From an uncultured Gammaproteobacteria bacterium (GTDB lineage: Bacteria > Patescibacteriota > Microgenomatia > Levybacterales > GWA1-39-11), in the NCBI GenBank assembly GCA_964425075.1, contig CAYRKM010000001.1, positions 601,827-665,826 on the forward strand: a stretch of 64,000 nt of DNA, in the 5' to 3' direction. Shown here in pieces: positions 22,549-41,903 of this stretch. Within the stretch, counting starts at the first letter, position 1. Each line of letters starts with the position of its first letter. A program made the position numbers and the translations under genes. The notes beneath the pieces were generated by a model. That model ran no database searches. It saw nothing but the letters and a program-made list of their open reading frames with translations, and had not been told where the DNA came from.

Positions 22549-22692
22549 CTATGATTGGAATTCGAACCGCAACCTCGGTATTCAGATGTTTAAAGGTGTG
22601 AATAGTGAGGGTACGGTGAGATACTAACACGTGCTTGCTGAGAGGCTCGGTCTAGAACCTTCTTATCCTTATAACGATTGTCTCACATCAAG

Positions 22693-22730
22693 GCTAAATG
22701 AGACAAACGAGACACTATAAAAAAGGGTGT
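22693..22730 (+). repeat. Copy A of conserved hairpin motif (aGGCTAAATGAGACAAAyGAGACACyATAAAA)
   Basis: Near-identical 38-nt stretch also at 53786-53822; contains GTCTCA...TGAGAC stem. Confidence 0.6.
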
Positions 22731-22788
22731 CTTATTTTCTATAATATCCCATAACAACACAACAGATAAATGATATATTTTGATATAG

Positions 22789-23382
22789 TTGTGTTTCTGC
22801 CCTTTAATTATGGCAAGGGCAAGAAAATATACAACATTTAATAGGGCAAGGCTTATGTTATTTACTCATTCATATGCCTGTTATGCTATTACTTGCCATG
22901 TAAAAACGAAATATAAAATTAATGATAACCTAACGCCACGAGAATTACGAAAGAGATATATCAATAAGAGAATTATTCCAGAAATTTCTAGGCTTTCTTA
23001 TTCGCTACATTTTGACTACGAAGTTCTATGGAGAGCAATACTATTGAATAAAAAGCCGCTACTGAGTAAGCAGGTAAGAAGCAGTGATGGAATTAGGTTA
23101 TATCTTGCCATCGAGGACGAACTGATTGCTCTTGCCGAATCAAAAAGGCACAGATCACGAGACTTTTTCGACCCTGATTATGAAAATGAATATGCGCTAC
23201 TCAGTATTGCAATAGAACGAGCAGCAGGAAGTCTTCTTAATGACGTAGAGGATGACTTTGTCTTTGATCAGCAATGTGAAGAAATGAAGAAGATATGTTT
23301 CAAGTGGTATTACAAAATTGCGTATCGATATAAACTGCCGACAACAAGAATTGTCCCGTTTGTTTTGAGACTTATCAGCTGA
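22789..23382 (+). CDS. Hypothetical protein (start uncertain)
   Basis: ORF only; convergent with helicase gene, 4-bp gap. Confidence 0.35.
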   Translation: MCFCPLIMARARKYTTFNRARLMLFTHSYACYAITCHVKTKYKINDNLTPRELRKRYINKRIIPEISRLSYSLHFDYEVLWRAILLNKKPLLSKQVRSSDGIRLYLAIEDELIALAESKRHRSRDFFDPDYENEYALLSIAIERAAGSLLNDVEDDFVFDQQCEEMKKICFKWYYKIAYRYKLPTTRIVPFVLRLIS

Positions 23383-23385: not shown

Positions 23386-26300
23386 TTATTGACTGGCTAT
23401 CACTTCTAAGTTTATTGCGTGTGTTTCTTTAAGATAATTTTCTGTAACGGCGAGTAGTTCTAGTTGACTATTACTTGCTTGGTTTTTAGATAAACCTGGC
23501 TGAACAACTGTGATTGTAAATTCAGGAATAAGATAAGGTACTTTATTTCTTATTTCTTCGAGTTTTTCTAAATCACCTTTTTCAAATCTTGAAACCAATC
23601 CTTTCTTTTGTCGACTCACCTCACGTAAAGTTAAGTGATCGATAAGTTTTTGTATATCATCTCTCCAATGAACACTTTTTTGTGCTTGACCGCAAACTGC
23701 ATATAGATCTTCGACTCTTGCTCCGGGAGTGGCAGATTGGGAGAACTTACAATGGTATAAATCAACTATTAATTTCTCCTCTGTCATTTTAATTCCTATT
23801 ACATCCGCAGCTTCATAGGAATCGTCATCGTCAAAAACGACATCATATTGTGAATCGTGGGTATCCTTTAGTGCCTCTTGTATGACTCGATATTGTATTG
23901 AGTCAGTATCTTTATTTACTGTCTGCGATTCTTTACTCAAATCAATACCATTCCAGTCCCATATTTGAATCTTATCCTTATCAAAAGGTGCAGGCGGATC
24001 AGCAGGATTTTCAAAAAGAACGTTGTATTGTAGGTATGAATCGTTTTCAAAACGAACAATAGGAGAATTCTCTTTTAACCAATCAGGAAGGGATTGTGGT
24101 TTTCTCGCAATTATAATTTGTGCAGTGTCTTGCCCAGTCGGTAAATACTCAACATTGTTATTATTAAATGCAATTTTATATTCAACACTTTTGTTTTCAC
24201 TAAAAACCTGGAACTTTATTGGGCCTGTTTTATTAAAGTCCGTTAACTCAATACCTGCTTCATACAATGGAATCGTCTCTCCCGCGATATTTAGTTCAAC
24301 AGTTTCCTCGCTTTTCAAGAGTAAGTCTTCTGGCCACTCTATTGTTAGCGGTACGAGGTTTGGCCGTTGTGTTATTAAAGTTGGGCGCAATACATATTTA
24401 AGAATATCTGTTGCAGAAAAAGTATCATCAAGTAATTTTGTGCCTGTTTTTCGGCACCATTCAATCCATTCCGAGATATCATCTGCTATTTTATAAGACC
24501 AAATCCTCCCTTTGTAAGATGACCCGATGCTTGTTTTACTACCATTCTCAAAACCTCTTCCAAAAAGATTGGATTTAATCCTATTTTGTTGCTGAGCGTC
24601 CGAGATTGCTGATAGTATGTCTGATCCAACATACATTGTGAATCGCATTGCTCGATTTAAGGAATGTGTTAAGCCAAGATTCATAAGGCTTAATCTATTG
24701 ATCCCAGAGAGAGTACGAAACACTTGTTCTCCACGAACTATTTCAACATCATCGCCACAAATAGCTTTTGCTAATTCCCCATGGAAGGACCTGTTGTTTG
24801 AGCTATTGATAAATAATAATTTTTGAGCTTCATCCCAATGAATCAAATACAGATCCCAAATCGTATTATGGATATCCTTAAAATTGCCCCAAGAAATTGG
24901 TTCTTTCTCGCAGGTAACAAAGAACACGACTTTTTCTCCTTGATTTACAGTAGGGTCAATAAAAAGCCTAGATTCTTTTACTACTTTTGGTATGTTTTCG
25001 GGAGTCCACCGCGTATTATTTGTTTTATAAACAACAGTGCTCATTTTAGGCAAAATATTTTGAGGTAAGAATTCTGGAGGCAAATCCACAAATCCTTCAA
25101 AAAACTGAGATAGCTTTTCCTGTTTGGTAGTCGCTCCTTCACTTAAGTTCCGTAGTAATTTATCCCAATCAGCATCTTCTGCATATAAGTCTTTTAACGC
25201 TTCTTCAACACCAGGGTTGGCGATATTTGCAACAATCGTTGCGGAACCAATATTTGGTTTTGTTCTTGTAAATCTTCCTGTAAACTGCAATGTAATGGCA
25301 AGACCTTTATGCACATCATGGAGTGCTGCAATTTTTAATTCAGGTAAGTCAAAACCTTCTCCAAACATGTCAACACATACAATAATTCTTGATTTTCTTT
25401 CATTTATTTCATTAAGAGATTGGCGTTTTTCAGCCACTTTTTTCTTACTATGAAAAAGTTGAGGATTATGATTTGCGCCGTGTTGTTGGTAAATAGCAAA
25501 TATATCTCGCGCACGAGTTATACTATCTGCTCGCGCCAAGATAATATGGTCTAGATTTTGTGCAAGGTCTTCTTCCAGCTTTTTGATTGCTCTTTTGGCA
25601 ATAGTCTCATCGGCACGTTGTTTATTATAATCTCTTACACCAATAAAACTGATTTGCTTGAAATACCCTTCGCTTTGCGCTTTTCGTAATGGATAATTAA
25701 AAATTACCTTTCCATCAATATGTCTTCCATCTCCTCTAAAAGGTGTGGCGGTAAATTGTAATATGGTTTTTTCTTTGAAGAATTTTCTGAATTTTTGCCA
25801 AGTTGGTGCTGAAATATGATGTGCCTCATCTATAAAAAGGTACGTAGCTGTTCCAGCCATTGCCTTTTGAATTTCTTCTGAGCATCCACCTACTATTGCC
25901 ATTGTCGTTATCACCACATTGCATGACCCAAAAAATTTATTTACCTCATCTACTGTTTTGAGTCGATGCTCGAGGGTCCCCACGATAGGATTTTCTGCTT
26001 TCCTTCCAACAGCTCCAATTTTTCTTAATAATCCGAGACCTAGGAATTTATTCGTGATCTGATCTCTTAGCGCATCTGTTGGTACAACTACTAGGATTTT
26101 ATCTATTCGCTCGCAAACCATAAGTGCAAGCATTGTTTCCGTTTTTCCTGTACCAGTAGGCATAACAATGGTGGCTGATGCGTTTGTTACTTTCCAATGA
26201 GCGAGTGCGGCATGGAGTGCACCGATTTGGGGCGGACGCAATCCTTCTTCAAGAATTTGATCATTTTCTCGTTTTTCTTCGACGAAAGAGAATTGCTTAT

Positions 26301-26466
26301 CCCAGGATTTAATTACTTTTTCGCAAGATCTGGGGAATGTAGCAATTCTTCTATTACTAAGTGTTAACGCTCTAGGTTTATCGCCGGAAAATGTAGCAGA
26401 TTTATTAACCTGCCTAATAGGATTACCTAATACTTTTGTGTTGATTATAAATTGATCATTATTCAC
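23386..26466 (-). CDS. SF2 helicase (DEAH, Type III Res-like) with ~500-aa C-terminal extension containing a PD-(D/E)xK-like motif
   Basis: Motif I MPTGTGKT, motif II FIDEAHH, motif III TATP, motif VI QFTGRFTR; C-terminal DVIGIKMTEEK pattern. Confidence 0.75.
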   Translation of the reverse strand: MNNDQFIINTKVLGNPIRQVNKSATFSGDKPRALTLSNRRIATFPRSCEKVIKSWDKQFSFVEEKRENDQILEEGLRPPQIGALHAALAHWKVTNASATIVMPTGTGKTETMLALMVCERIDKILVVVPTDALRDQITNKFLGLGLLRKIGAVGRKAENPIVGTLEHRLKTVDEVNKFFGSCNVVITTMAIVGGCSEEIQKAMAGTATYLFIDEAHHISAPTWQKFRKFFKEKTILQFTATPFRGDGRHIDGKVIFNYPLRKAQSEGYFKQISFIGVRDYNKQRADETIAKRAIKKLEEDLAQNLDHIILARADSITRARDIFAIYQQHGANHNPQLFHSKKKVAEKRQSLNEINERKSRIIVCVDMFGEGFDLPELKIAALHDVHKGLAITLQFTGRFTRTKPNIGSATIVANIANPGVEEALKDLYAEDADWDKLLRNLSEGATTKQEKLSQFFEGFVDLPPEFLPQNILPKMSTVVYKTNNTRWTPENIPKVVKESRLFIDPTVNQGEKVVFFVTCEKEPISWGNFKDIHNTIWDLYLIHWDEAQKLLFINSSNNRSFHGELAKAICGDDVEIVRGEQVFRTLSGINRLSLMNLGLTHSLNRAMRFTMYVGSDILSAISDAQQQNRIKSNLFGRGFENGSKTSIGSSYKGRIWSYKIADDISEWIEWCRKTGTKLLDDTFSATDILKYVLRPTLITQRPNLVPLTIEWPEDLLLKSEETVELNIAGETIPLYEAGIELTDFNKTGPIKFQVFSENKSVEYKIAFNNNNVEYLPTGQDTAQIIIARKPQSLPDWLKENSPIVRFENDSYLQYNVLFENPADPPAPFDKDKIQIWDWNGIDLSKESQTVNKDTDSIQYRVIQEALKDTHDSQYDVVFDDDDSYEAADVIGIKMTEEKLIVDLYHCKFSQSATPGARVEDLYAVCGQAQKSVHWRDDIQKLIDHLTLREVSRQKKGLVSRFEKGDLEKLEEIRNKVPYLIPEFTITVVQPGLSKNQASNSQLELLAVTENYLKETHAINLEVIASQ

Positions 26467-26539: not shown

Positions 26540-27283
26540 ATGAAAAAAGACTATTTTGCTGAAAAAACGAAGCGACTGAAACAGGAAATAAAAGTGCTTG
26601 TCAGCAGACCTGCATTTCAGAAAGAAATTGCTGACCTCAGGAAAAAATGGAATATTCCTTCCGAAGGAATAAAGAATGAGGATGACAATTTAGAATGGAA
26701 TCATAAGCTTGATATTGCAACTGACGAGTATTACAAAACAGAATGGCCGAAGTGTCGAGCAGAGATTGATAGCTTAAATAAAGAGAAAAAGTTCCTAGAA
26801 GCTGAGGATAAAAGAAAAGAGTGTAACGCTAAAGCTCCAATGCATGCATTTCGTGAGGATGTATGGGGTGTCGTCAGAAAATATCGCCTTTCTCCACGTT
26901 GGCACACTGGTATTCGTCGCTACCTTTTATTTAATGATCCCGATAATCTGAACTTGACCGCAGGAGTAACTATGGTTACGACATGGGAAAACGGTATGAA
27001 AAGACTTTCGCTTGAAATTGATGGCGATACGACCCTCAATGACATCAGGCATATTTGGCCGTGGGTGAAGCGAATGCAGAAAGATTTAATGTATAGGAAG
27101 GCTGATAAGTTCCAGCCTATTAAGAACTTTGACCGAGATCAAAGAATTTATGAGCTTGAACAAGAAGGAAAGTCGGAAAAGGATATTGGGGATATCATAC
27201 AGCAAGAATTTGGTGACTCACTTGATTACAACGAAATAAATATAGCTATCAACCGCTACAAGAAACGCCTCAACATCAATTAG
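26540..27283 (+). CDS. Hypothetical protein (phage-like, basic/acidic mixed)
   Basis: ORF only. Confidence 0.4.
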   Translation: MKKDYFAEKTKRLKQEIKVLVSRPAFQKEIADLRKKWNIPSEGIKNEDDNLEWNHKLDIATDEYYKTEWPKCRAEIDSLNKEKKFLEAEDKRKECNAKAPMHAFREDVWGVVRKYRLSPRWHTGIRRYLLFNDPDNLNLTAGVTMVTTWENGMKRLSLEIDGDTTLNDIRHIWPWVKRMQKDLMYRKADKFQPIKNFDRDQRIYELEQEGKSEKDIGDIIQQEFGDSLDYNEINIAINRYKKRLNIN

Positions 27284-27333: not shown

Positions 27334-28626
27334 ATGTTGAACGCACATACTAAACAAGAGAACCCATATTCTATCGTTTATGTTTCAGCTCAAGAACTTC
27401 GCCCCGCTGAATACAATCCAAGAAAATGGGATGAGGAAGCTGCCAAGCAATTAACGGAGAGTATTAAGCGCTTCGGATTGATAGATCCCATTATTGCGAA
27501 TGGTGCATCTAATCGAAAAAATATTGTAATTGGTGGACATTTCAGACTCGAAGTAGGAAAAAGACTAGGTATAGAAAAAGTACCTGTGGTTTATGTTAAT
27601 ATCCCCAATCTTCAGAAGGAAAAGGAGTTGAATCTACGTCTTAACCGCAATACTGGAGAATGGGATTTTGAACTTCTGAAATCATTTAATGTCGAGCTGT
27701 TACTTGATGTTGGATTTGATGATAGCGATCTTTCACACATTTGGGATGATAACTTGGGAGTCGAAAATGACGACTTTGATGTTAAAAAAGAAATTGAAAA
27801 GATCAAAGAACCAAAAAGCAAATGGGGAGATATATACCAGCTTGGATCGCACCGACTTATTTGTGGAGACGCGACAGATCCCGAAGTACTCAAAAAGCTA
27901 GTACAGGATGACAAGATATCCATGCTCTACTGCGATCCCCCATATAATATCTCGCTCGATTACAGCAACGGGATTGGAACAAATGGAAAATATGGCGGGA
28001 AAACGAATGACAAGAAATCTGAAGAAGAATATAAAGCGTTTCTCAAGAAAACGCTTGAAAATGGGCTATCAACTGCTTTTCCTGATGCACACGTGTTTTA
28101 TTGGTGTGATGAAAATTACATTGGACTAATCCAGGGAATATACAAGGAACTTGGGATTATAAACAAACGAGTTTGTCTTTGGATTAAGAATAACCAGAAC
28201 GTCACTCCACAAACTGCATTTAATAAAGTGTATGAACCATGCGTTTATGGTATTCAAGGTAATCCGTATCTTTCCGAATCAGTCAAAAACCTGAATGAGG
28301 TTCTCAATAAAGAGGTAGGAACAGGAAATCGACTGACAGATGATATCCTTGACCTTTTTAATATATGGCTAGCAAAACGTCTTCCTGCACAAGAATACGA
28401 ACATCCGACAGAAAAACCACCAACACTCCATGAAAAAGCATTACGTCGTTGCACGAAAGCTGGAGACATCGTGCTTGATGTATTCGGTGGCTCCGGATCT
28501 ACTCTCATTGCGTGTGAACAACTCAAACGCAGAGCATATCTTTGCGAAATTGAGCCTATTTTTTGTGACCTTATTATCAAGCGCTTCGAGAAGTTGACTG
28601 GACAGGAGGCAAAGCTATGCAAATAA
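27334..28626 (+). CDS. ParB-like nuclease domain fused to beta-class DNA methyltransferase
   Basis: N-terminal ParB/Srx fold (VIGGHFRLEVGKRLG); motif IV CDPPYNI then motif I VLDVFGGSGSTLIA. Confidence 0.8.
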   Translation: MLNAHTKQENPYSIVYVSAQELRPAEYNPRKWDEEAAKQLTESIKRFGLIDPIIANGASNRKNIVIGGHFRLEVGKRLGIEKVPVVYVNIPNLQKEKELNLRLNRNTGEWDFELLKSFNVELLLDVGFDDSDLSHIWDDNLGVENDDFDVKKEIEKIKEPKSKWGDIYQLGSHRLICGDATDPEVLKKLVQDDKISMLYCDPPYNISLDYSNGIGTNGKYGGKTNDKKSEEEYKAFLKKTLENGLSTAFPDAHVFYWCDENYIGLIQGIYKELGIINKRVCLWIKNNQNVTPQTAFNKVYEPCVYGIQGNPYLSESVKNLNEVLNKEVGTGNRLTDDILDLFNIWLAKRLPAQEYEHPTEKPPTLHEKALRRCTKAGDIVLDVFGGSGSTLIACEQLKRRAYLCEIEPIFCDLIIKRFEKLTGQEAKLCK

Positions 28627-29372
28627 AAATAGGTGATGTTCTACAACTCGGTGATCATCGCTTGGCGTGTGGAGATGCAAAAGACTCAGCGTTGTTAAAG
28701 AGGCTTATTTTAGATGATCGAATCTCTCTCCTTCTGACGGATCCGCCCTACGGCGTGGCTTATGTTGAAGGAAAAGCTGAACTTACGGAAATTAAGAGTA
28801 ATAAAAAGATAGCCAACGATCACAACCAAACAGAAGGAACGTATCGCCATTTTACGAAGGAATGGCTAGAAGCAATAAAGCCATATCTTGCCAAGAAAAA
28901 TTCTTTTTACATTTTTAACTCAGACAAAATGGTGTTCTCCTTGCGAGATGGCATTGTTGATGCGGGTTTTCGACTCACACAACTACTTGTGTGGATCAAA
29001 AACAATGTTGTCGTCGGACGGCTTCACTATTTACCACAACATGAGCTGATCGCATACGGATGGTTTGGAAGTCATGAGTTCTATAAAGCAAAGGACAAAA
29101 GTATCCTCATCTATCCAAAACCTAATAAAAGCCCACTTCATCCAACCATGAAGCCAGTCGGACTTCTCAGAAACTTAATCCTTAATAGCTCGAAAATTGA
29201 TGACTATGTCTATGACCCATTCGGCGGATCGGGATCAACACTTATTGCTTGCGAACAAACGAAAAGGAAATGCCTCATGGTGGAGATAGATCCGGAGTAC
29301 TGCCAAGTGATTATTGATCGCTTTGAAAAAGTTACAGGTTACAAAGCAGAAAGGACAAAAGATGGAAAATAA
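28617..29372 (+). CDS. DNA methyltransferase (beta-class N4C/N6A)
   Basis: Motif IV LLLTDPPYGV followed by motif I VYDPFGGSGSTLIA. Confidence 0.8.
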   Translation: MQIKIGDVLQLGDHRLACGDAKDSALLKRLILDDRISLLLTDPPYGVAYVEGKAELTEIKSNKKIANDHNQTEGTYRHFTKEWLEAIKPYLAKKNSFYIFNSDKMVFSLRDGIVDAGFRLTQLLVWIKNNVVVGRLHYLPQHELIAYGWFGSHEFYKAKDKSILIYPKPNKSPLHPTMKPVGLLRNLILNSSKIDDYVYDPFGGSGSTLIACEQTKRKCLMVEIDPEYCQVIIDRFEKVTGYKAERTKDGK

Positions 29373-29790
29373 TCCGACGATTCAGAAGCGAATAGATAAA
29401 AATCAGGAACTACTTATTGAGCAGCTTAAGAAAACGCCAATTGTTCAAGTTGCGTGTGAGAAAGTCGGGGTAGGCCGAGCTACTTATTACCGATGGAGAA
29501 AAGAAAATGAAGTATTTGCCGAACAAGCAGATGAAGCAATAGCTGAAGGAGCGTTACTTGTGAATGACATGGCCGAGTCCCAACTCATGGCAGCGATTCG
29601 GGATAAAAATCTCACAGCCATCATTTTCTGGTTGAAGCACCATCACCCTCACTACGCAACGAAAGTTGAAGTGACGGCTAGACTAAAAGCTGATAACGAA
29701 GTTTTAACGCCTGAACAAGAAGCACTAGTAACGAAAGCATTAAAACTTGCCTCATTAATTCCTGAAACAAAGGAGGAAGTAAAACAATGA
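29362..29790 (+). CDS. Terminase small subunit-like HTH protein
   Basis: VACEKVGVGRATYYRWRKE helix-turn-helix; immediately upstream of and overlapping TerL. Confidence 0.5.
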   Translation: MENNPTIQKRIDKNQELLIEQLKKTPIVQVACEKVGVGRATYYRWRKENEVFAEQADEAIAEGALLVNDMAESQLMAAIRDKNLTAIIFWLKHHHPHYATKVEVTARLKADNEVLTPEQEALVTKALKLASLIPETKEEVKQ

Positions 29791-31313
29791 TTGTTGGAGC
29801 AATTACAGATAACGTGCTCGAAGGAATAAAAAGAGAAAGATCCGTGAGACGAGAAGTCGCAAGAAGTAGCCATCTTTGGTTTTTCTCAATATACCTTGGA
29901 CACTATATCAAGTATCCATTTGCGCCGTTTCATTCAGAAATGTTTGCGCTGACGGAAAATGCTGACATACGATTATCAGTTCTTGTAGCATTTCGTGGTT
30001 CTGGAAAATCAACGCTTATAACTCTGTCTTATCCAATCTGGGCAATTGTGGGAGCACAGCAAAAGAAGTTTGTGCTCATCCTCTCTCAAACCCAAACGCA
30101 AGCAAGACTTCATATGGCAAACATAAAACGAGAGCTTGAGAGTAATGACTTATTAAAAGCAGATATTGGACCATTTGAAGAAGTAAGTGACGAATGGGGA
30201 TCAAATTCAATTGTCATCTCAAAATATGGCGCACGTATTACTGTTGCCTCAACGGAGCAGAGTATTCGAGGATTAAGACATGGGGAGCATCGACCTGATC
30301 TGGTTATTTGTGATGATGTGGAGGATTTAAATAGTGTAAAAACCCGGGAAGGACGAGACAAAACATTCCAATGGCTGGTTGGTGAAGTGCTCCCAATCGG
30401 AGATCAAGAAACAAAGATTGTAATTGTTGGAAATCTTTTGCACGAAGACAGTCTCTTAATGCGACTGAAAAAAGGAATTGAAAATGAAAAACTTAATGGA
30501 AAATATTTTGCCTATCCACTCCTAGATATAAATAATACTATTGCATGGCAGGCTAAATTTAAAACTTTAGAGGACGTTGAGAGATTACGGGCAAGTATTG
30601 GAACAGACTCTGCGTGGTATCGAGAGTATTTATTACGAATAATTTCTGATGCGGACCGCTTAGTCCATCCTGAATGGATTCAGTATTATGACCGGATACC
30701 ATCTGAAGATAGTGGTGACTTCCATTACACTGCAACTGGTATTGATCTGGCGATATCTCAACGGGAGTCTGCAGACTATACTGCAATGGTTTCAGCTAAA
30801 GTATTTGGCTACTATGAGAAATTAAAAATATACATCCTGCCCCATCCCGTAAATGAACGTTTAAGTTTTCCTGAAACCTACGAGAAAGCAAAACAATTGT
30901 CCAAAGATTTAGGGGACGGTCACTATACTAAATTATTTATCGAAGATGTAGGATATCAAGCTGCTCTTATCCAAGACTTATCAAATCACAATGTTCCAGC
31001 AGAAGGGGTAAAGGTATCAGGACAAGATAAAAGATCAAGACTTGCTTTGATAACGCATCTTATTAAGCAAGGAAAAGTTCTCTTCCCTAAGGGAAACCAA
31101 GCTGAAGAACTTATTATGCAACTTACCGGGTTCGGTATTGAGAAACATGACGATTTAGCTGATGCGTTTTCGCTTCTACTTCTAAAGATCCTGGAAGAGG
31201 ATCAAGGAGAGCCAAGTGTCTATATCATCGATATGGGAAGCAGTCTTTATGATAGATATTCACCACTCGGGAATCTGAACGAAGACCGTTTTACACTTGA
31301 TACAAAATTTTAG
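29787..31313 (+). CDS. Phage terminase large subunit (ATPase + nuclease)
   Basis: Walker A AFRGSGKSTLI, Walker B LVICDDVED, C-terminal RNaseH-like nuclease with DDLADAF. Confidence 0.85.
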   Translation: MIVGAITDNVLEGIKRERSVRREVARSSHLWFFSIYLGHYIKYPFAPFHSEMFALTENADIRLSVLVAFRGSGKSTLITLSYPIWAIVGAQQKKFVLILSQTQTQARLHMANIKRELESNDLLKADIGPFEEVSDEWGSNSIVISKYGARITVASTEQSIRGLRHGEHRPDLVICDDVEDLNSVKTREGRDKTFQWLVGEVLPIGDQETKIVIVGNLLHEDSLLMRLKKGIENEKLNGKYFAYPLLDINNTIAWQAKFKTLEDVERLRASIGTDSAWYREYLLRIISDADRLVHPEWIQYYDRIPSEDSGDFHYTATGIDLAISQRESADYTAMVSAKVFGYYEKLKIYILPHPVNERLSFPETYEKAKQLSKDLGDGHYTKLFIEDVGYQAALIQDLSNHNVPAEGVKVSGQDKRSRLALITHLIKQGKVLFPKGNQAEELIMQLTGFGIEKHDDLADAFSLLLLKILEEDQGEPSVYIIDMGSSLYDRYSPLGNLNEDRFTLDTKF

Positions 31314-31580
31314 CTAAACAGTCGAAGGATACAAATCATCAACTTTTACCTTCAATGCTTTGGCAATACGATAGAGCGTGTAGGATGAAGGTGTTCTTTT
31401 CGCAGTCTCTACAAGATTAATATATGTCCGATAAAAACCACATTCAGCAGAAAGTTGATCTTGAGACCACCCCTTCTTCTTTCTCGCCTCCCTTATATTG
31501 TTACCGACAATTTCGGTAAACTTATACTTACTCAGCATATAGCATATTTTCCTAGGCTCTCCTACAACTGTGCAACGCAC
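31314..31580 (-). CDS. XRE-family HTH transcriptional regulator
   Basis: NNIREARKKKGWSQDQLSAECGFYRTYINLVETAKRTPS helix-turn-helix. Confidence 0.75.
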   Translation of the reverse strand: MRCTVVGEPRKICYMLSKYKFTEIVGNNIREARKKKGWSQDQLSAECGFYRTYINLVETAKRTPSSYTLYRIAKALKVKVDDLYPSTV

Positions 31581-31662: not shown

Positions 31663-32223
31663 ATGAAGAAATTACTTAAATGGGGAGGAATCGGACTCAT
31701 AATTATTATTGTGCTTGCAGTAATTGCAAGTAGCGGTGGAGATAAATCAGGTAACCAATCCACAACTGACTCAAACTCAGCGGGATCGCCTGATAGCAAG
31801 CAGGACAATACTGCTAAAACATACGGTCTTAATGAGACTGTCCAGGACGGAGATCTTGCTTTTACCGTTACCGGTGTTGAAACAGCCAAAACGCTTGGAA
31901 ATCAATTCACCGAGAAAGATTCTCAGGGCACGTTTTACGTTGTAACCCTGAAAATTGAAAATAAGGGAAACAAAACCGCAACCTTTGATAGCTCAATGGC
32001 GAAAGTAACAGACGACCAAGGCCGTGAATTTGAACGCTCTATCGAAGGCCAAACCGCCAAAGGTATGGCGCAGGGTAGTGTGGATTTATTTCTACAGCAA
32101 ATTCAACCATCATTATCTGTAACAGGAGACTTGGTGTTTGATCTGCCAGCGGATATGCAAAATCCAATGCTGGTTGTTAAAGGTTCACTCTTTGCAAAAG
32201 GAGCGAAAATTAAGCTTCAGTAA
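31663..32223 (+). CDS. DUF4352 domain membrane-anchored protein
   Basis: N-terminal TM, Ser/Thr-rich linker, FTVTGVE...YVVTLKIENKG...DDQGREF pattern of DUF4352; strong SD AAAGGAGGTG 8 nt upstream. Confidence 0.6.
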   Translation: MKKLLKWGGIGLIIIIVLAVIASSGGDKSGNQSTTDSNSAGSPDSKQDNTAKTYGLNETVQDGDLAFTVTGVETAKTLGNQFTEKDSQGTFYVVTLKIENKGNKTATFDSSMAKVTDDQGREFERSIEGQTAKGMAQGSVDLFLQQIQPSLSVTGDLVFDLPADMQNPMLVVKGSLFAKGAKIKLQ

Positions 32224-32224
32224 A

Positions 32225-32274
32225 AATAACGGATCCGTTATTTTCAAAAGCCCCTTCTTTAAGGAGGGGCTTTT
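32225..32274 (+). terminator. Two tandem intrinsic terminators after DUF4352 gene
   Basis: AATAACGGATCCGTTATTtt perfect palindrome then AAAAGCCCCTtctttaaggAGGGGCTTTT hairpin with T-tract. Confidence 0.6.
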
Positions 32275-32279
32275 AGTTC

Positions 32280-32306
32280 TTGACACACTACTACACAATG
32301 TAGTAG
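32280..32306 (+). promoter_or_regulatory. Promoter -35 TTGACA with overlapping cop-box-like palindromic operator CTACTACA-caa-TGTAGTAG upstream of csoR
   Basis: TTGACA at 32280-32285; perfect 8-bp inverted repeat at 32288-32306; same motif recurs 3 more times in island. Confidence 0.5.
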
Positions 32307-32326
32307 ATTATCTCTATGGGGGGTAT

Positions 32327-32599
32327 ATGTCATACAGGCCTAAAGATACACAAGAGCGAATAATCCACCGTCTCAAGATCGCAAAGGGGCAACTAGAGAA
32401 AGTAATCAAAATGGTTGAAGAAGATACATATTGTATTGATATCCTTCACCAATCGCACGCTATACAGAAAGCCCTAAAAGAGACAGATCATCTCATGCTT
32501 GAGAATCATCTACAAAAATGTGCCGCTGATGCTATTGGCAAAGGTCGCAAAGATGAAGCAATAAAAGAAGTAATGCAAGTTTTCAAAAAATCTCAATGA
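32327..32599 (+). CDS. csoR: CsoR/RcnR-family metal-sensing transcriptional repressor
   Basis: ~91 aa from Met64 of track ORF; conserved C-x24-H-x3-C style residues (YCIDILHQSHAIQKAL) of CsoR family. Confidence 0.75.
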   Translation: MSYRPKDTQERIIHRLKIAKGQLEKVIKMVEEDTYCIDILHQSHAIQKALKETDHLMLENHLQKCAADAIGKGRKDEAIKEVMQVFKKSQ

Positions 32600-33384
32600 A
32601 AGTGATTTTAATTATTGTTATTTTATTCTTTGCCATAGCCGCGTCAGGATTTCTATATTTTACGGTTAATAGAAATGGCACGAAAGCTCAAGAGAACTCA
32701 AGAACAAAAGTTCAGCAGAGTAATTCAAGCTTACAAGATCTCGTTGTTGCTCCACAAAAACCCACGGATAAAGTAATTGTAGAAAAAGTTACTCTCAAGA
32801 AAGCTGGATTTCTTGCTCTACGTGAGATGGAAGGAGACACACTGAGCCAAATTGTTGAGATAAGTACTTTCTTAAAGGTAGGAACACACACTGATGTGGA
32901 GATTCCTCTTAACAACGTGGATATTACGGATAAGGATCTTATTGTAATGGTTTATGAAGATCAAGAAAATGATCAGGTTTTTAATGATCTTGAGATTCCG
33001 GCAGTCAATGAGAAAGGTTCTTTGATTGCAAGATATGTAAAAACTGGTGAACCCCTTCCAGAAAATCTAGTTGAAGGAAATACATCTGACATGCCTGCAC
33101 ACAGCATGGAAGGAATGGTAACAGTAAAGTATACAGATAATGGATTTACACCAAATAAGATAGAAATTAACGAGGGAGATATGGTTGAATTTCGAAATGA
33201 GAGTAACAGGAATATGTGGGTTGCCTCAGCCAATCACCCGGCACATGAAGTTCTACCTACTTTTGACCAATTCAGAGCGTTTACGAAAGGTTCTGTATAT
33301 CGCTATGTATTCAAAAAGACAGGTTCATGGGAGTATCACGATCACTTAAGTCCAACTTTAGGAGGAGTAGTTGTCGTAAATTAA
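32596..33384 (+). CDS. Membrane-anchored protein with C-terminal cupredoxin-like domain (putative metal-binding)
   Basis: N-terminal TM; C-terminal beta-rich region with His cluster EYHDHL; context in copper island. Confidence 0.35.
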   Translation: MKVILIIVILFFAIAASGFLYFTVNRNGTKAQENSRTKVQQSNSSLQDLVVAPQKPTDKVIVEKVTLKKAGFLALREMEGDTLSQIVEISTFLKVGTHTDVEIPLNNVDITDKDLIVMVYEDQENDQVFNDLEIPAVNEKGSLIARYVKTGEPLPENLVEGNTSDMPAHSMEGMVTVKYTDNGFTPNKIEINEGDMVEFRNESNRNMWVASANHPAHEVLPTFDQFRAFTKGSVYRYVFKKTGSWEYHDHLSPTLGGVVVVN

Positions 33385-33422
33385 ATGTAAATATTGAAAT
33401 GTAGGACATAATAACTTTTACT

Positions 33423-34580
33423 ATGCAATTATCAAAACACATATATACAATTGCTTCATTTGTTTTTGTAATATTCGTATTGGGACTAGCCTTTTTCTCC
33501 GATAAAATAGCTGCTACTAATAACTCAACTGTTAAACAAAATCAAGCCGCAGAAAAATTATATGTAGCCTTAGAGGATGATGGTGCAATCGCTGTGATTG
33601 ATACAAAAGATAATTCACTTCTTGGCAAAATCGATCTTACAGAAAAGAATGGGGAGATGGAAGTCGGTTACTCAGCTCATAATGTGCAGGTAGCACCGGA
33701 TGGCAAAAGTGTTTGGGTAACTGCAAACTTTATGGGTCTTGGGGGACATGAAGGAGAAAATGATACCACTGAAAATGAAGAAACAAAAGAAGCATTTTCA
33801 GACCAAGTGATAATCATTGATCCCCAAAAGGATTCTATAGTAAAACGTATTGATATAGGAGCTGATCAGCATCTTGCCCACATAGTTGTAACCAGGGGCG
33901 GAAAAACTGCCTTTGCTACCGCGCAGGAACCAGGACTGGTATATAAAATAAACGGTGTAACATACGAAGTCGAGAAAACTATCCCTCTTACAAAAGATGC
34001 AGAGCCGCATGGTCTAAGACTTTCAGCAGATGACACAAAAGCTTTTGTTGCACTTATAGATGGAAAAGGCATTGGTGTAGTCGATACCAGAACAAATGAA
34101 GTAAAAACTGTCCCACTTTCAGGAAGCGCTGTACAAACAGCGGTTATTCCTAATACTAACTATATTGCAGCTTCGGTGTACGATACAAAGCAGATAGCAT
34201 TTTATGATACCGTTACAGGGGAAGTTTCCTATGTAGATTTACCTGCTGAATCTGAAGGCGCAATCCAATCATATGCTACACCAGATGGAAGGTATTTATA
34301 TATTGCAGATCAAGGATATTACTTCGGCAAACCAACAAGTGATTATGTGTATGTTATTGATGTTCAAGGGAAGCAGGTTGTTGGCAAAATTCAGGCAGGT
34401 GTTGCGCCTCACGGTGTTGTAGTGTCCCCTGATGGGAAAAGAGCGTATATTACAAATCTTTTAAGTGATGACATTTCAGTTATTGATACAGCCACTGATA
34501 AAGAACTTACCAAAATAAAAGTTGGAAAAATGCCAAATGGTATTAGCTTGTGGTCACACCAATCGGGAGGTACACCTTAA
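33423..34580 (+). CDS. Secreted YVTN-family beta-propeller repeat protein
   Basis: Signal/TM then repeated ~40-aa units (YVxxxxDxxIxVIDT) typical of YVTN beta-propeller. Confidence 0.55.
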
Positions 34581-36859
34581 TGGAAACGAAAACATTTCAA
34601 GTTAAAGGGATGCACTGCGCATCCTGCGCAAATATCATAAAAAGAAAATTAGAAAAGCTCGAGGGAGTTACAACTTGCACTGTTAATTTCGGAACAGAAA
34701 AAGCAGAAGTAGCATTTGATGCTACGAAAGTTGGGTTGCTTCAGATGAATGAGCAAGTTAACAAGCTTGGGTATACTCTTAATACTACTGAAGCTCCTAA
34801 TGCTTCTGAACAATCACAAGTTTCGACAGAAAATGAGGCAAAAGAGCAAAAGCTTAAAGAACTTGAAGAAATGAGGCAGAAAACAGCCTTTGTCATGCCG
34901 ATTGCAGCAGTTGTTTTTGTCTTGATGCTCTGGGAAATTCTTGTCTCTAGGGTAGCGTTTCTTCCTACCTTTCCTCTTTCAATGGATGCATTTAACAGAG
35001 CATCATTTATATTGGCAACTCCTGTCATGTTCTGGATCGGGAAACCTTTTATTAACGGCGTGGTACGGTTTATTAAGTATAGAGCCGCAAATATGGATAC
35101 ACTGGTTGGAATTGGTACATTAGTTGCATACTTCTACAGCAGTATTATGCTTCTTTTTCCTGAAATAAAGACGCTTCTAAACGCTCCTGAAGGGTTATAT
35201 TATGATGTAACAATTGTCGTTATTGGATTTATTACGTTAGGTAAGTATCTTGAAGCAAAATCAAAACTTAAGACTGGTGAGGCAATTGAAAAACTTTTAG
35301 GGCTTGCGGCAAAATCTGCTATTGTGATTCGCGATGGAAAAGAATTAGAGATTCCCATTGGACAAGTAGTTGTCGACGATACGCTTATTGTGAAACCAGG
35401 TCAAAAAATCCCAGTAGATGGAGAGATTATTCAAGGAAAATCCTCAATAGATGAGTCCATGATTACAGGAGAATCAATACCAGTTGATAAAACTGTTGGG
35501 GATACCGTGATCGGTGCAACTATTAATAAACACGGCGCATTTCAAATGAAGGCAACACAGGTAGGAGGACAAACAGTTTTGTCTCAAATAATAAAAATGG
35601 TTGAGGCGGCTCAAGGATCAAAAGCGCCTATTGAAAGGATAGCCGATCAAGTATCAGGAGTTTTCGTTCCCATTGTTTTGGTATTTGCAGTTATTGTCCT
35701 TCTTTTATGGCTCACTGTTGGATCTCAATTTATGCCATTCTCTCAAGCTCTCTCGCTTGGTCTTATTAGCTTTGTAGGAATTTTGGTTATCGCCTGTCCA
35801 TGCGCAATGGGTCTTGCAACTCCCACCGCTGTCATAGTCGGCGTTGGTAAAGCAGCGCAAAATGGTATCTTAATTAAGAATGCAGAAAGTCTTGAGAAGT
35901 TTCAAGGTATTAACTTTGTTGTGATGGATAAAACAGGCACGATTACTAATGGAACACCCGCAGTAACGGATATAAAAGTGACTGCAAAAATAGCGCAAAA
36001 AAAGATATTACAGCTGCTTGCGTCTTTAGAAAAACAATCAGAACACCCATTAGCTCAGGCAGTAGTTGATGCGGCAAAAGATGAAAATATTAGCTTCTTA
36101 TCAGTTTCTCACTTCAAGGCATTGGAAGGAAAGGGGCTTGAAGGAAGTATTGCCGGAACGCATTACTTTGCCGGAAATCTTAAATTAGCAGATGATCTTG
36201 GGTTAAAAGTTGATACAAATTTGATTAAAAAATTAACTTCGCAAGGAAAAACACCAGTAGTCTTTGCAACTAAAAAAGCAATTATTGCCTATGTTGCTAT
36301 AGCCGATACCATCAAAGAAGACGCAAAAGAAGCAGTTGCAGCGCTTCATAAGCTTGGTATCAAAGTTGCAATGCTAACAGGAGATAACAGACGTACTGCA
36401 GAACACATTGCAAAGCAAGTTGGCATTGATCGGGTTATTGCAGAAGTGCTACCAAGCGATAAGGCGAAGGAAGTAAAAAAGCTACAGGATGAAGGGTATA
36501 AAGTCGCAATGGTAGGTGATGGTATTAATGATGCACCAGCGCTTGCTACGGCTGATGTGGGAGTGGCAATGGGCACAGGAACTGATGTGGCTATTGAGTC
36601 TGCAGGAATAACCCTTCTTGGCGGTCACATTTCTAAATTACCAAAAGCAATAAAGCTTTCCCGTAAAACTATGCGGGTTATCAAACAGAATCTGTTCTGG
36701 GCATTTTTCTATAATATTGTCGGGATCCCGGTAGCTGCGGGAGCGCTATATCCATTTATAGGTATTATGCTTTCTCCTGCGATTGCAGGGGCAGCGATGG
36801 CCTTTAGCAGTGTTTCAGTCGTGACCAATTCACTTCTTCTAAAACGTCATAGACTTTAA
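34580..36859 (+). CDS. copA: Copper-translocating P1B-type ATPase (CopA-like)
   Basis: N-terminal [13 protein letters not shown]6 CPC ([11 protein letters not shown]), [15 protein letters not shown]. Confidence 0.9.
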
Positions 36860-36863
36860 CTTT

Positions 36864-38581: not shown

Positions 38582-38598
38582 TGATTTGTTATCTAACC

Positions 38599-38615
38599 TG
38601 CTACAATATGTAGTA
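38599..38615 (+). promoter_or_regulatory. Cop-box-like operator tgCTACA-ATA-TGTAGta overlapping TACAAT -10 and start codon of blaI-like gene
   Basis: Inverted repeat CTACA/TGTAG with 3-nt spacer; TACAAT hexamer inside. Confidence 0.45.
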
Positions 38616-39983: not shown

Positions 39984-40021
39984 CCTCTAATAAATTTACC
40001 CTTGACAACACTAGAATTATA

Positions 40022-40040
40022 CTACTACAATATGTAGTAG
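40022..40040 (+). promoter_or_regulatory. Cop-box-like operator CTACTACA-ATA-TGTAGTAG within promoter (TTGACA 40002-40007; TACAAT 40026-40031) of dsbA-like operon
   Basis: Perfect 8-bp inverted repeat with 3-nt spacer; overlaps -10. Confidence 0.55.
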
Positions 40041-40058
40041 GCAGTTTTTAACAGTAGT

Positions 40059-40862: not shown

Positions 40863-40864
40863 TT

Positions 40865-41899: not shown

Positions 41900-41903
41900 A
41901 CTT

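What the first reader, a model, noticed from the sequence alone, without database searches (positions are those of the whole stretch)
27334..31313. Phage packaging/modification module without structural genes (satellite-like or decayed prophage)
A ParB-MTase fusion, a second MTase, a TerS-like HTH protein and a full TerL are contiguous and co-oriented, as in many phage genomes. No portal, capsid, tail or lysis genes follow; an XRE regulator and DUF4352 come next. Either the prophage has decayed or this is a satellite-type element that keeps its own terminase.
Basis: partly seen in the sequence, partly recalled or inferred. Interest (0 to 1): 0.5.

Follow-up and report, generated by a model that had tools for sequence, protein, structure and literature searches.

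The report
Capsid-less terminase island of Patescibacteria
The methylase-terminase gene block is the conserved core of a mobile island about 27 kb long, one of a family found across the tiny Patescibacteria (CPR) bacteria, that keeps a working phage DNA-packaging enzyme and a serine recombinase but no virus shell genes, and here carries copper-resistance genes.

Summary
ParB-methylase, a second methylase, a TerS-like protein and a full TerL are contiguous and co-oriented at 27334-31313, and no structural genes follow.

It is not a decayed prophage. More than 120 related loci keep the order ParB-MTase, (MTase), TerS, TerL, 0-15 cargo genes, large serine recombinase. The loci whose record titles I could interpret are from Patescibacteria. 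In 28 loci the recombinase lies directly after TerL. None of the recombinase-linked loci has a portal or capsid gene.

The TerL catalytic motifs are invariant, and dN/dS for the core genes is 0.01-0.07.

In a crude TerL tree the island TerLs form one clade. Its sister is a group of real phages ordered MTase-TerS-TerL-portal-protease-capsid.

In the window the island spans about 22637-49465. It runs from a conserved tRNA-like left-end motif to tRNA-Gln and carries about 15 kb of copper-resistance cargo. An older, truncated copy lies in tandem at 15459-22636.

Best reading (inferred, about 0.5): a repressor-controlled, phage-derived hitchhiker that excises with its recombinase and packages its own methylated DNA into capsids borrowed from a helper phage. 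I found no description of this family in the held literature.

The parts
22637..22732 (+). Left end of island B. It starts with the 37-nt motif GCTGAGAGGCTCGGTCTAGAACCTTCTTATCCTTATA, which resembles a tRNA 3' end, followed by a conserved left arm.
   Evidence: Colinearity with L008 starts exactly here, and L009 shares these 96 nt at 91.7%. The motif is identical in three loci, and two copies flank a complete 14.7-kb element in L015. Of its first 24 nt, 16 match the 3' end of tRNA-Gln in register, p about 9e-5. Eighteen more copies with diverse upstream flanks occur in metagenomes.
22789..23382 (+). c197, a conserved left-arm ORF of unknown function (197 aa).
   Evidence: It clusters with the left-most genes of L005, L008, L018, L062 and L076. 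It has no Pfam, PHROG or PADLOC hit.
23386..26466 (-). ResIII/DEAD helicase-nuclease-like protein (1026 aa). It sits in the variable left-arm slot and is probably defence or restriction cargo.
   Evidence: Pfam ResIII 2.8e-25 and Helicase_C. Weak PADLOC hits to PbeA and type IV restriction enzymes. In L009 an OLD-family nuclease takes its place, and other loci have other large genes here.
26540..27283 (+). c247, the first gene of the rightward operon. Its function is unknown and it is an accessory gene, present in about 30 of 106 loci.
   Evidence: Clustering and an iterated HMM search. dN/dS 0.05-0.07. No family hit. A single-sequence AF2 model (pLDDT 72) gave no significant fold match.
27334..28626 (+). 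ParB-N/Srx-like domain fused to a beta-class N6/N4 DNA methyltransferase (core gene).
   Evidence: Pfam ParB_N plus N6_N4_Mtase, and phrog_498 at 3.6e-102. The DPPY and FGGSGST motifs are visible in the translation. The family is present in 76 of 87 loci in the genome set. dN/dS 0.01-0.025.
28617..29372 (+). Second DNA methyltransferase without a ParB domain, present in a subset of islands.
   Evidence: Pfam N6_N4_Mtase 9e-32. It is present in L008, L009, L016, L018, L023 and others, and absent in many loci.
29362..29790 (+). TerS-like small HTH protein (core gene). The mechanical ORF starts at 29314.
   Evidence: PF13022 at 1.6e-7 and six PHROG TerS families. It always lies directly upstream of TerL and overlaps it. 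The family has 3783 proteins at E<=1e-5. dN/dS 0.025-0.045. The AF2 model is all-helical, with an HTH at residues 28-48 and a long helix at 50-80, but the fold search was not significant.
29787..31313 (+). TerL, the terminase large subunit (ATPase plus nuclease), apparently intact (core gene).
   Evidence: phrog_38 at 2.1e-78. Walker A is AFRGSGKST, Walker B is DLVICDDVED, and nuclease residues D320, E386, D456 and D459 are invariant across 21 diverse homologues. The only sequence match to a solved structure is T7 gp19. dN/dS 0.02-0.04.
31314..31580 (-). XRE/CI-type HTH repressor, transcribed divergently from the cargo-side genes.
   Evidence: Pfam HTH_3 at 1.8e-13. The same family occupies the same position in 32 loci.
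31663..32223 (+). DUF4352 protein, a recurrent gene at the head of the cargo region.
   Evidence: Pfam DUF4352 at 4.2e-28 and phrog_806 at 1.3e-34. It is found in about 22 loci, mostly between TerL and the recombinase.
32138..47304 (+). Copper/redox resistance cargo: CsoR, a cupredoxin protein, a beta-propeller, two P-type Cu-ATPases, a BlaI/CopY-like repressor with an M56 sensor, a DsbA-like protein, a DsbD-cupredoxin protein, a multicopper oxidase and others.
   Evidence: Pfam. Colinearity with relatives L008 and L009 ends at 32274, after which their cargo differs. Other islands carry MFS efflux genes, DGRs or restriction-modification systems in this slot.
47314..47394 (+). Conserved leader upstream of the recombinase, containing the palindrome GGTACCTTGTACC.
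   Evidence: Direct repeat D7 with 17397-17477. It is conserved in L001, L017, L020, L062 and L110. Its function is unknown.
47362..48702 (+). Large serine recombinase 2, the integrase of island B (core gene).
   Evidence: Pfam Resolvase, Recombinase and Zn_ribbon_recom. The catalytic-serine motif YARKSTEDDERQ is present. A recombinase of this family lies downstream of TerL on the same strand in 66 non-redundant loci, and in 28 of them the gap is at most 217 nt.
48695..49267 (-). Small ORF (190 aa) in the variable slot between the recombinase and the right end. From its sequence it looks secreted or membrane-bound.
   Evidence: No Pfam hit. An unrelated 177-aa ORF replaces it in L017.
49377..49465 (.). 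Conserved right arm of island B, abutting the tRNA.
   Evidence: It is 88.7% identical to L017 although the neighbouring ORFs differ. A right-arm consensus (ACGGTCAC...GGTGCCCGTCT) precedes tRNA-Gln in other loci, and it precedes the left motif at tandem or attP-type junctions.
49466..49537 (-). tRNA-Gln(CTG), the integration target. Its 3' end faces the recombinase.
   Evidence: Called by ARAGORN and Rfam (58.6 bits). Sixteen of 75 recombinases have a tRNA (Ser, Gln or Glu) within 1 kb downstream, and all 16 are on the opposite strand. The background density is 0.031 tRNA per kb.
15459..16550 (+). Older island A: a 5'-truncated TerL (residues 120-473) fused in frame to the first ~240 aa of an acyltransferase (ORF 14745-16550).
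   Evidence: BLASTP gives 77% identity over 355 aa to the intact TerL. Pfam finds Acyl_transf_3 plus Terminase_6C in one ORF. Intact acyltransferase orthologues are about 345 aa.
16552..18797 (.). Island A, continued: XRE (16552-16767, minus strand), c182 (16838-17386) and large serine recombinase 1 (17445-18797).
   Evidence: XRE and c182 cluster with the genes at the same position in L001 and L005. Recombinase 1 is 68% identical to recombinase 2.
18833..22548 (.). Right arm of island A: a two-domain DNA methyltransferase (890 aa, + strand) and an HNH endonuclease-like protein (348 aa, minus strand), probably a restriction-modification pair.
   Evidence: Pfam and PADLOC MTase_II at 3.7e-70, with HNH-type hits to phrog_1035 and to the Cas9 HNH region. 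The pair lies between recombinase 1 and the left end of island B. Assigning it to island A is an inference.

Best explanation
SHOWN
- The block is the conserved core of an integrative mobile island about 26.8 kb long (about 22637-49465), inserted at the 3' end of tRNA-Gln.
- It belongs to a large family. Every record title I could interpret names a Patescibacteria/CPR lineage.
- The family's invariant gene set is ParB-methyltransferase, TerS-like protein, TerL and a large serine recombinase.
- Cargo slots lie (a) upstream of the operon, (b) between TerL and the recombinase, and (c) between the recombinase and the right end. Here slot (b) holds copper resistance.
- The terminase is under strong purifying selection and has all its catalytic residues.
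- No island encodes a portal, capsid, tail or lysis protein.
- The island TerLs form one clade whose sister is a group of real phages ordered MTase-TerS-TerL-portal-MuF-protease-capsid.

INFERRED mechanism
1. The island is a phage-derived hitchhiker (satellite-like).
2. A repressor keeps the rightward operon off. It is an XRE type here and a LexA/CI-type self-cleaving S24 repressor in about 16 relatives.
3. On induction, by DNA damage or helper-phage activity, the serine recombinase excises the island at its tRNA-like att sites.
4. The ParB-methyltransferase(s) methylate the island's DNA, which protects it from the restriction systems of the next cell.
5. TerS recognises a site on the island, and TerL cuts the DNA and pumps it into procapsids made by a co-resident or infecting tailed phage, probably of the sister lineage.
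6. In the new cell the recombinase integrates the island next to a tRNA gene.

The terminase therefore serves the island's own spread. The cargo is what makes the island useful to its host.
For: Domains and order in the window.

Family size:
- 3493 TerL hits at E<=1e-10, the top 120 at 63-100% identity.
- 3783 TerS hits.

Conserved order in related loci:
- PM-(MTase)-terS-TerL-(cargo)-recombinase in 78 genome loci and 52 IMG/VR loci.
- The minimal four-gene form occurs in at least 15 loci, and 28 of 66 TerL-to-recombinase gaps are at most 217 nt.

Catalytic motifs are invariant. dN/dS is 0.01-0.07 with saturated synonymous sites.

A control shows that structural genes are detectable when present. 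Portal, MuF, protease and capsid homologues appear only in the phage loci L078, L130, L139 and L141-L167.

In the TerL neighbour-joining tree, the islands are monophyletic, sister to phages L130 and L078, with phages L141-143 as the next outgroup.

Signs of mobility:
- Tandem copies and a truncated copy in the window.
- Several copies per contig or MAG.
- The same backbone with different cargo.
- A tRNA next to the recombinase in 16 of 75 cases, always in the same orientation.
- A shared left-end motif with diverse outside flanks, which flanks a whole element in L015.
- A probably circular 17.3-kb contig carrying the core genes.

Inducible regulation: XRE in 32 loci, LexA_DNA_bind plus Peptidase_S24 repressors in 16 loci (13 of them 350-1300 nt upstream of the operon), and an HTH_17 excisionase-like gene.
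Against: - No helper phage has been identified, and no packaged, concatemeric or unambiguous attP form was found. The attP-junction search of IMG/VR gave 0 hits.
- The 'right arm plus left motif' junctions can be tandem arrays rather than circles.
- Only one putative circular contig exists. Its 44-nt end overlap is an unusual length for what the contig name suggests was a k=87 assembly.
- No replication module is conserved, so it is unclear how a packaging substrate (a concatemer) would form.
- Island sizes range from about 5 to more than 27 kb with no preferred size.
- The TerS assignment rests on weak profile hits and position. PDB profile and fold searches were not significant.
- Pairwise divergences of TerL against the recombinase or the methylase correlate only weakly (rho 0.12-0.13). 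Gene-by-gene distances are also discordant (c247 versus TerL against L016). The modules therefore recombine and are not strictly co-inherited.
- All evidence is computational.
Confidence: 0.5

Rival explanations
1. The island moves or is maintained only through its serine recombinase. The TerS-TerL pair is an anti-phage device: a decoy terminase that cuts or mis-packages the DNA of infecting phages, or blocks their portals. The methylase protects the cell's own DNA.
For: Restriction-modification genes, helicase-nucleases, OLD-family nucleases and DGRs cluster in the islands, so they look like defence islands. CPR genomes depend heavily on restriction-type defence (my own background knowledge). 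Known satellites also interfere with their helpers (PMC10803314).
Against: PADLOC has no model matching TerS, TerL or the accessory ORFs. TerL is tightly linked in one operon to the recombinase, not to the defence genes. The defence-like genes are variable cargo, whereas the terminase is the invariant part. A pure decoy would not need both the ATPase and nuclease sites to stay invariant together with a cognate TerS.
Confidence: 0.12
2. The terminase works without any capsid. TerS-TerL acts as a site-specific cutter and translocase that processes the excised island for replication or for export by another route, such as vesicles, released DNA taken up by competence pili, or cell-to-cell contact.
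For: No capsid genes occur in any of more than 120 recombinase-linked loci. No size constraint is apparent. Natural competence is thought to be widespread in CPR (my own background knowledge). Cargo-carrying tycheposons are proposed to travel in vesicles (10.1101/2020.12.28.424599).
Against: All characterised TerL proteins translocate DNA only when docked on a portal (established knowledge of the family). The sister clade consists of ordinary phages with a portal next to TerL. Nothing in the islands suggests another docking partner.
Confidence: 0.12
3. It is the packaging half of a split, domesticated gene-transfer agent. The head and tail genes sit elsewhere in the same genome and are host-controlled.
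For: Known GTAs do have split loci (established knowledge). The rest of this genome cannot be read with these tools.
Against: The core is mobile, multi-copy, tandemly inserted, bounded by att sites and always linked to an integrase. A domesticated GTA gene would not be expected to show these features. The islands occur in only some genomes and at different sites.
Confidence: 0.08
4. It is a decayed prophage that lost its structural and lysis genes by deletion.
For: A truncated TerL copy exists in the window, and deletions clearly happen here.
Against: The same capsid-less architecture recurs in more than 120 loci across CPR. dN/dS is 0.01-0.07 and the catalytic residues are invariant. The TerL clade is monophyletic and distinct from phages. 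In many loci the recombinase lies directly after TerL.
Confidence: 0.02

Closest known systems
Capsid-forming PICIs (cf-PICIs)
   Same: They are integrated satellites that encode both TerS and TerL, so packaging is specific for the island. They depend on a helper phage for part of the virion (10.1101/2022.09.08.507074, listed).
   Different: cf-PICIs also encode capsid, portal, protease and head-tail connector proteins and borrow only the tails. They have a primase/replication module and AlpA-type control. The islands here have no structural gene at all, have no conserved replication gene, and use a large serine recombinase.
Classical PICIs/SaPIs and PICMIs
   Same: They are small integrated elements induced with or by a helper phage and packaged in helper capsids. 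They carry accessory or defence cargo. PICMIs show that a minimal satellite can fill full-size capsids as concatemers (PMC10803314).
   Different: PICIs carry at most TerS and re-direct the helper's TerL. PICMIs carry no packaging gene. Both have int-alpA-primase cores. Here the invariant core is TerS, TerL, ParB-methylase and a serine recombinase.
Tycheposons of Prochlorococcus
   Same: They are cargo shuttles in streamlined genomes, inserted next to tRNA genes and often in tandem arrays. A subset carries phage packaging genes (10.1101/2020.12.28.424599).
   Different: Of the tycheposons, 97% use tyrosine recombinases, and most have a replication module. The PICI-like ones carry terS or a capsid gene but never cargo. 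None is reported with TerL. Here packaging genes and cargo sit in the same element.
Tailed phages with the late-operon order MTase-TerS-TerL-portal (IMG/VR contig 3300035698_013676 = L130, and L078)
   Same: TerL is 46-47% identical and forms the sister clade. The methylase family (phrog_498), the TerS position and the gene order up to TerL are the same.
   Different: In the phages, portal, MuF-like, protease and HK97-type capsid genes follow TerL. In the islands, a repressor, cargo and a serine recombinase follow it.
Serine-recombinase islands such as SCCmec and Tn4451-type mobilisable transposons
   Same: They are chromosomal cassettes excised and integrated by large serine recombinases. They carry resistance cargo, and their own route of cell-to-cell transfer is not encoded or not known (my own background knowledge).
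   Different: None of these has a terminase. Their hosts and target sites differ.

Membership tests
Terminase large subunit (TerL, Terminase_6/T7-like branch) | N-terminal ASCE ATPase with Walker A and Walker B motifs | tested here: met
   AFRGSGKST and DLVICDDVED are present. R70, S72, K74, T76, D176, D177 and E179 are invariant in 21 diverse homologues. A profile built from the family hits the T7 gp19 ATPase domain.
Terminase large subunit (TerL, Terminase_6/T7-like branch) | C-terminal RNase H-like nuclease with three acidic residues | tested here: met
   Terminase_6C at 6.5e-6. D320, E386, D456 and D459 are invariant.
Terminase large subunit (TerL, Terminase_6/T7-like branch) | Works on a procapsid portal, normally encoded nearby | tested here: not met
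   There is no portal in the window element or in any recombinase-linked locus. Whether TerL docks on a foreign portal cannot be tested with these tools.
Terminase small subunit (TerS) | Small protein encoded directly upstream of TerL, with an N-terminal HTH and helical oligomerisation core | tested here: inconclusive
   Position, size and overlap with TerL fit, and six PHROG TerS families hit at 1.7e-9 to 4e-4. The AF2 model shows an HTH plus a long helix. The PDB profile search found nothing. Foldseek gave only non-significant matches to the phBC6A51 phage protein 2ao9 and to Sf6 gp1 (E 0.7-3.7).
Large serine recombinase (phage-type integrase) | Resolvase catalytic domain with the nucleophilic serine, plus Recombinase and zinc-ribbon domains | tested here: met
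   All three Pfam domains are found in both copies. The motif YARKSTEDDERQ is present.
Large serine recombinase (phage-type integrase) | Lies next to its attachment site at one end of the element | tested here: met
   The right end and tRNA-Gln lie 764 nt downstream. In 16 of 75 loci a tRNA lies within 1 kb, always facing the recombinase. Recombination at these sites was not tested.
Prophage (intact or decaying) | Structural and lysis genes or their remnants, with pseudogenisation if decaying | tested here: not met
   No structural homologue was found. The core genes are under strong purifying selection.
PICI/SaPI | Core of int, alpA/stl and primase-replication genes, with terS only | tested here: not met
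   No primase or replication gene is conserved. TerL is present. The integrase is a large serine recombinase.
cf-PICI | Own capsid, portal, protease and connector genes in addition to TerS and TerL | tested here: not met
   TerS and TerL are present, but none of the head genes is.
Phage satellite in the functional sense | Induction by a helper phage, and packaging and transfer in its virions | not testable with these tools
   The only support is indirect: repressor types, a sister phage clade and one probable circular form.
Gene transfer agent | Host-fixed, non-mobile locus with head-tail genes that packages random host DNA | tested here: not met
   The locus is mobile, multi-copy and bounded by att sites, and it has no head or tail genes. 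The rest of the genome could not be read.
Known anti-phage defence systems (PADLOC) | Match of the core proteins to a defence-system model | tested here: not met
   TerS, TerL, c247, c197 and DUF4352 have no hit, and the methylases hit only generic MTase models.
Tycheposon | tRNA-adjacent insertion, site-specific recombinase, replication module, cargo | tested here: inconclusive
   The tRNA adjacency, recombinase and cargo are met. The replication module was not found. The recombinase class differs from 97% of tycheposons, and the host phylum differs. The resemblance is in design, with no evidence of common descent.

The most novel reading that the evidence does not exclude
The terminase of these islands works with no virion at all. 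In this reading a TerS-TerL motor has been taken over by a serine-recombinase element as a capsid-independent machine that cuts out and moves its DNA, either for replication or for export to another cell. That would make it the first terminase known to act outside virus assembly, and possibly the main gene-exchange route in Patescibacteria.
Probability: 0.1. Interest if true: 0.9.

Novelty: new variant of a known kind. Interest (0 to 1): 0.65.

Why it matters
Patescibacteria make up a large share of bacterial diversity. They have tiny genomes and no known conjugation systems, and how they exchange genes is largely unknown.

This family numbers thousands of protein clusters. It carries metal resistance, efflux pumps, restriction-modification systems and diversity-generating retroelements, so it is a concrete candidate vehicle for that exchange.

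If the islands use borrowed capsids, they would be a satellite type that brings a complete terminase but no shell. That would extend the known range of phage-satellite strategies.

The family also supplies many natural pairs of large serine recombinases and tRNA-linked att sites, and a set of compact TerS-TerL pairs for biochemical work.

Tried and rejected
- Near-identity DNA searches of the core against the phage and plasmid collections found nothing. tblastn of TerL gave at most 28% identity to catalogued phages.
- Empty-site comparison through acyltransferase orthologues failed. The closest orthologue is only 60% identical and shows no synteny.
- A BLAST search for a tRNA-derived direct repeat on the left side of 18 loci found nothing. 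The left end was found later by comparing related islands.
- Direct and inverted alignment of the two ends of island B gave only chance-level matches.
- The TerS profile against PDB sequences and Foldseek of its model were not significant.
- The single-sequence model of c247 and its Foldseek search were not significant.
- PADLOC had no hit for any core protein.
- A pattern search for an attP junction in IMG/VR gave 0 hits.
- The correlation of pairwise identities (TerL against recombinase or methylase) was weak and not informative.
- The promoter and terminator scan found fewer sites than in shuffled sequence, so I drew nothing from it.
- Seven literature searches, six of them aimed at the family itself, found no description of it. 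The library is incomplete, so prior description cannot be excluded.
- Hypotheses considered and rejected: conjugative element (no conjugation genes seen), type III restriction-modification system (the methylase and helicase lie on opposite strands in different islands), and plasmid (housekeeping flanks).

Full report
**1. Observation**

- 27334-28626 is a ParB_N plus N6_N4 methyltransferase fusion.
- 28617-29372 is a second methyltransferase.
- 29314/29362-29790 is a small HTH protein. It passes the Pfam cut-off for PF13022 and hits six PHROG small-terminase families.
- 29787-31313 is a full-length TerL (phrog_38 at 2e-78, Terminase_6C).

An XRE repressor on the other strand and a DUF4352 protein follow. 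Everything between them and 48.7 kb is copper/redox cargo, two unknown ORFs or a recombinase, and none of it is structural or lytic. Housekeeping genes lie on both sides within the window.

**2. Organism and relatives**

No near-identical DNA exists in the phage or plasmid collections, and catalogued phage TerLs are at most 28% identical.

In the large protein collection TerL has 3493 relatives at E<=1e-10, the best 120 at 63-100% identity. The few that carry names are from Patescibacteria. TerS has 3783 relatives.

A scan of one genome per species returned 78 loci with 41-89% identical TerL. Where the titles name an organism, they name Levy-, Roizman-, Woese-, Shapiro-, Gottesman-, Falkow-, Uhr-, Yanofsky-, Nomura-, Zambryski-, Moran-, Buchanan-, Staskawicz-, Pacei-, Peri- and Saccharibacteria. 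About 20 co-assembly MAGs are titled 'uncultured Gammaproteobacteria' and similar. Their loci have the same low G+C as the others. I could not verify those names, so restriction to CPR is probable, not proven.

**3. A conserved capsid-less architecture**

I called ORFs in all the loci and clustered the proteins. The order is: ParB-methylase, an optional second methylase, TerS, TerL, an optional XRE on the opposite strand, 0-15 cargo genes, then a large serine recombinase on the same strand.

The methylase is present in 76 of 87 loci in the genome set. The recombinase lies downstream of TerL in 66 non-redundant loci, and in 28 of them the gap is at most 217 nt. The bare four-gene form (about 5 kb) exists in at least 15 loci.

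IMG/VR holds 52 more loci of this kind with TerL at least 43% identical, and three real phages in the same identity range, L130 and L139 (IMG/VR) and L078 (genome set) (section 5).

Precomputed annotation of four contigs shows the same core with different cargo: DGR plus AAA ATPase, MarR plus MFS efflux, or two-component system plus copper ATPases. The upstream genes also differ: helicase, OLD-family nuclease or HNH.

**4. The core is functional, not decaying**

Across 21 diverse TerLs, the Walker A, Walker B and nuclease acidic residues are all invariant, and the window protein has them.

Against its closest relatives, TerL, TerS, the ParB-methylase and c247 have dN/dS of 0.01-0.07 with saturated synonymous sites.

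**5. Relation to real phages**

As a control, I compared every protein of the phage-type loci with every protein of the island-type loci. Portal, MuF, protease and capsid homologues turned up only in L078, L130 and L139.

PHROG scans show that L130 reads methylase (the same phrog_498 as here), TerS, TerL, portal, MuF-like, protease, HK97-type capsid. L142 reads TerL, portal-MuF, HNH, tail fibre, protease.

In a neighbour-joining tree of 150 TerLs, all recombinase-linked TerLs form one clade. L130 plus L078 are its sister and L141-143 the next outgroup. This is a crude distance tree.

The simplest reading is a single origin from a phage late operon. The portal and everything after it were replaced by a repressor, cargo and a recombinase, and the lineage then radiated widely.

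**6. Ends and insertion site in the window**

The window aligns colinearly with L008 from exactly 22637 to 32274. L009 shares only the first 96 nt at 91.7%.

The first 37 nt are identical in the three loci. A related pair of copies flanks a complete 14.7-kb island in L015. Eighteen further copies in metagenomes have unrelated upstream flanks but a conserved ~60 nt downstream.

On the right, recombinase 2 is followed by a variable small ORF, a conserved 89-nt arm (88.7% identical to L017) and tRNA-Gln(CTG), whose 3' end faces the island.

The first 24 nt of the left motif match the tRNA 3' end at 16 positions in register (p about 9e-5).

Sixteen of 75 recombinases have a Ser, Gln or Glu tRNA within 1 kb, all in this orientation. 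About one would be expected by chance.

I therefore place island B at about 22637-49465 (26.8 kb). The exact crossover point is not determined.

**7. A second, older copy**

ORF 14745-16550 is the first ~240 residues of an acyltransferase joined in frame to TerL residues 120-473 (77% identical to the intact copy). It is followed by an XRE, a c182 ORF and recombinase 1, which is 68% identical to recombinase 2.

A two-domain methylase and an HNH protein fill the space up to 22636.

This is what successive insertions at one tRNA site would give. The older island A was pushed away from the tRNA and later lost its left part by deletion.

The sequence just left of the motif at 22637 resembles a second type of right arm seen at similar junctions in L172, L178 and L186.

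**8. Regulation**

Thirty-two loci have the XRE gene. Sixteen have a LexA_DNA_bind plus Peptidase_S24 protein with the Ala/Cys-Gly cleavage site and the catalytic-serine (GDSM-type) motif. Thirteen of these lie 350-1300 nt upstream of the methylase operon, mostly divergent from it. A 65-aa HTH_17 (excisionase/AlpA-like) family also recurs in the left arm.

A ~60-nt leader with the palindrome GGTACCTTGTACC precedes the recombinase in a subset of loci.

These are the control parts of temperate phages, integrative conjugative elements and satellites.

**9. Possible free form**

Contig L037 (17,334 nt, a Falkowbacteria MAG) has a 44-nt terminal direct repeat. An Rhs-like ORF of 398 aa reads through the junction. 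It carries methylase, methylase, TerS, TerL and two recombinases.

This suggests a circular molecule, but it is one case. The junctions of 'right arm plus left motif' in short metagenome contigs can equally be tandem arrays.

**10. Mechanism**

Shown:
- a mobile, tRNA-targeting, recombinase-bounded island family;
- an intact, selected terminase;
- no virion genes;
- phage ancestry of the core;
- repressor control.

Inferred: after induction the island excises, is methylated, and is cut and packaged by its own TerS-TerL into procapsids of a helper phage. It then integrates in the next cell.

I rate the whole chain at about 0.5. The part 'conserved mobile island family, not a decayed prophage' I rate at about 0.9.

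Weak points are the absence of an identified helper, of a replication module and of any packaged form, and the weak TerS evidence.

Rivals are a decoy or defence role for the terminase, a capsid-independent role, and a split gene-transfer agent.

**11. Comparison and novelty**

The closest known designs are cf-PICIs, PICIs and PICMIs, and tycheposons.
- cf-PICIs share the TerS plus TerL pair but have a full head module.
- PICIs and PICMIs are borrowed-capsid satellites but lack TerL.
- Tycheposons are tRNA-linked cargo shuttles in streamlined genomes, but they mostly use tyrosine recombinases, have a replication module, and never combine packaging genes with cargo.

The islands fail the defining gene sets of all of these (see the membership table). 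Seven searches of the held literature (six aimed at the family itself) found no description of the family.

I class it as a new variant of a known kind (hitchhiking integrative elements or satellites), with an interest score of 0.65.

Noticed in passing
window 14745-16550: A single 601-aa ORF joins the N-terminal two thirds of a surface-polysaccharide acyltransferase in frame to a TerL lacking its first 119 residues. It is the scar of a deletion that removed the left part of an older island and the 3' end of a host gene.
   Followed up: yes
window 18833-22548: An 890-aa protein with two DNA-methyltransferase domains lies next to a convergent 348-aa HNH-type nuclease. This is probably a restriction-modification pair carried between recombinase 1 and the next island.
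   Followed up: partly
window 32288-32305, 38598-38615, 40022-40039: An 18-nt palindrome (CTACTACAATATGTAGTA and close variants) occurs three times: near the predicted CsoR start, directly in front of the BlaI/CopY-family repressor gene, and upstream of the DsbA-like gene. It may be the operator of that repressor (family D17).
   Followed up: no
window 17397-17477 and 47314-47394; L001, L017, L020, L062, L110: A conserved ~60-nt leader with the palindrome GGTACCTTGTACC lies just before the start codon of the serine recombinase. It is kept although the upstream genes differ. It may act in regulation or as a recombinase-binding site.
   Followed up: partly
window 49521-49537 and 49580-49596: The 5'-terminal 17 nt of tRNA-Gln are repeated exactly 59 nt further on, outside the island. 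This may be a trace of another insertion event at this tRNA.
   Followed up: no
L070, L085, L091-L094, L097: One sub-clade carries two full-length TerL paralogues in tandem, about 52% identical to each other, both with all catalytic motifs intact. I have no explanation. A mixed motor or two helper specificities are possibilities.
   Followed up: partly
L037 (JAFGMD010000010.1, 17,334 nt): This is probably a circular contig, with a 44-nt end overlap and an ORF that continues across the junction. It carries the core genes plus two recombinases and an Rhs-like toxin gene.
   Followed up: partly
L001-L004 (Roizmanbacteria), L054, L063, L077, L109, L122 and others: Diversity-generating retroelement parts (reverse transcriptase, bAvd, AAA_5 ATPase) recur as cargo of these islands.
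   Followed up: no
L005, L009, L072, L103, L119, L122: A different, longer serine recombinase (476-580 aa) often sits just outside the left end of the island. In L009 its stop codon overlaps the left-end motif. This suggests that other recombinase elements use the same att site.
   Followed up: no
L185, L187: Two long metagenome loci carry the left-end motif, but none of the island core genes follows within 5-11 kb. Other kinds of element may share this end sequence.
   Followed up: no
window 57476-63811: Three large minus-strand ORFs (736, 555 and 825 aa) have no Pfam hit. The 555-aa one belongs to a family that also lies next to islands in L017, L047, L051, L068 and L083.
   Followed up: no
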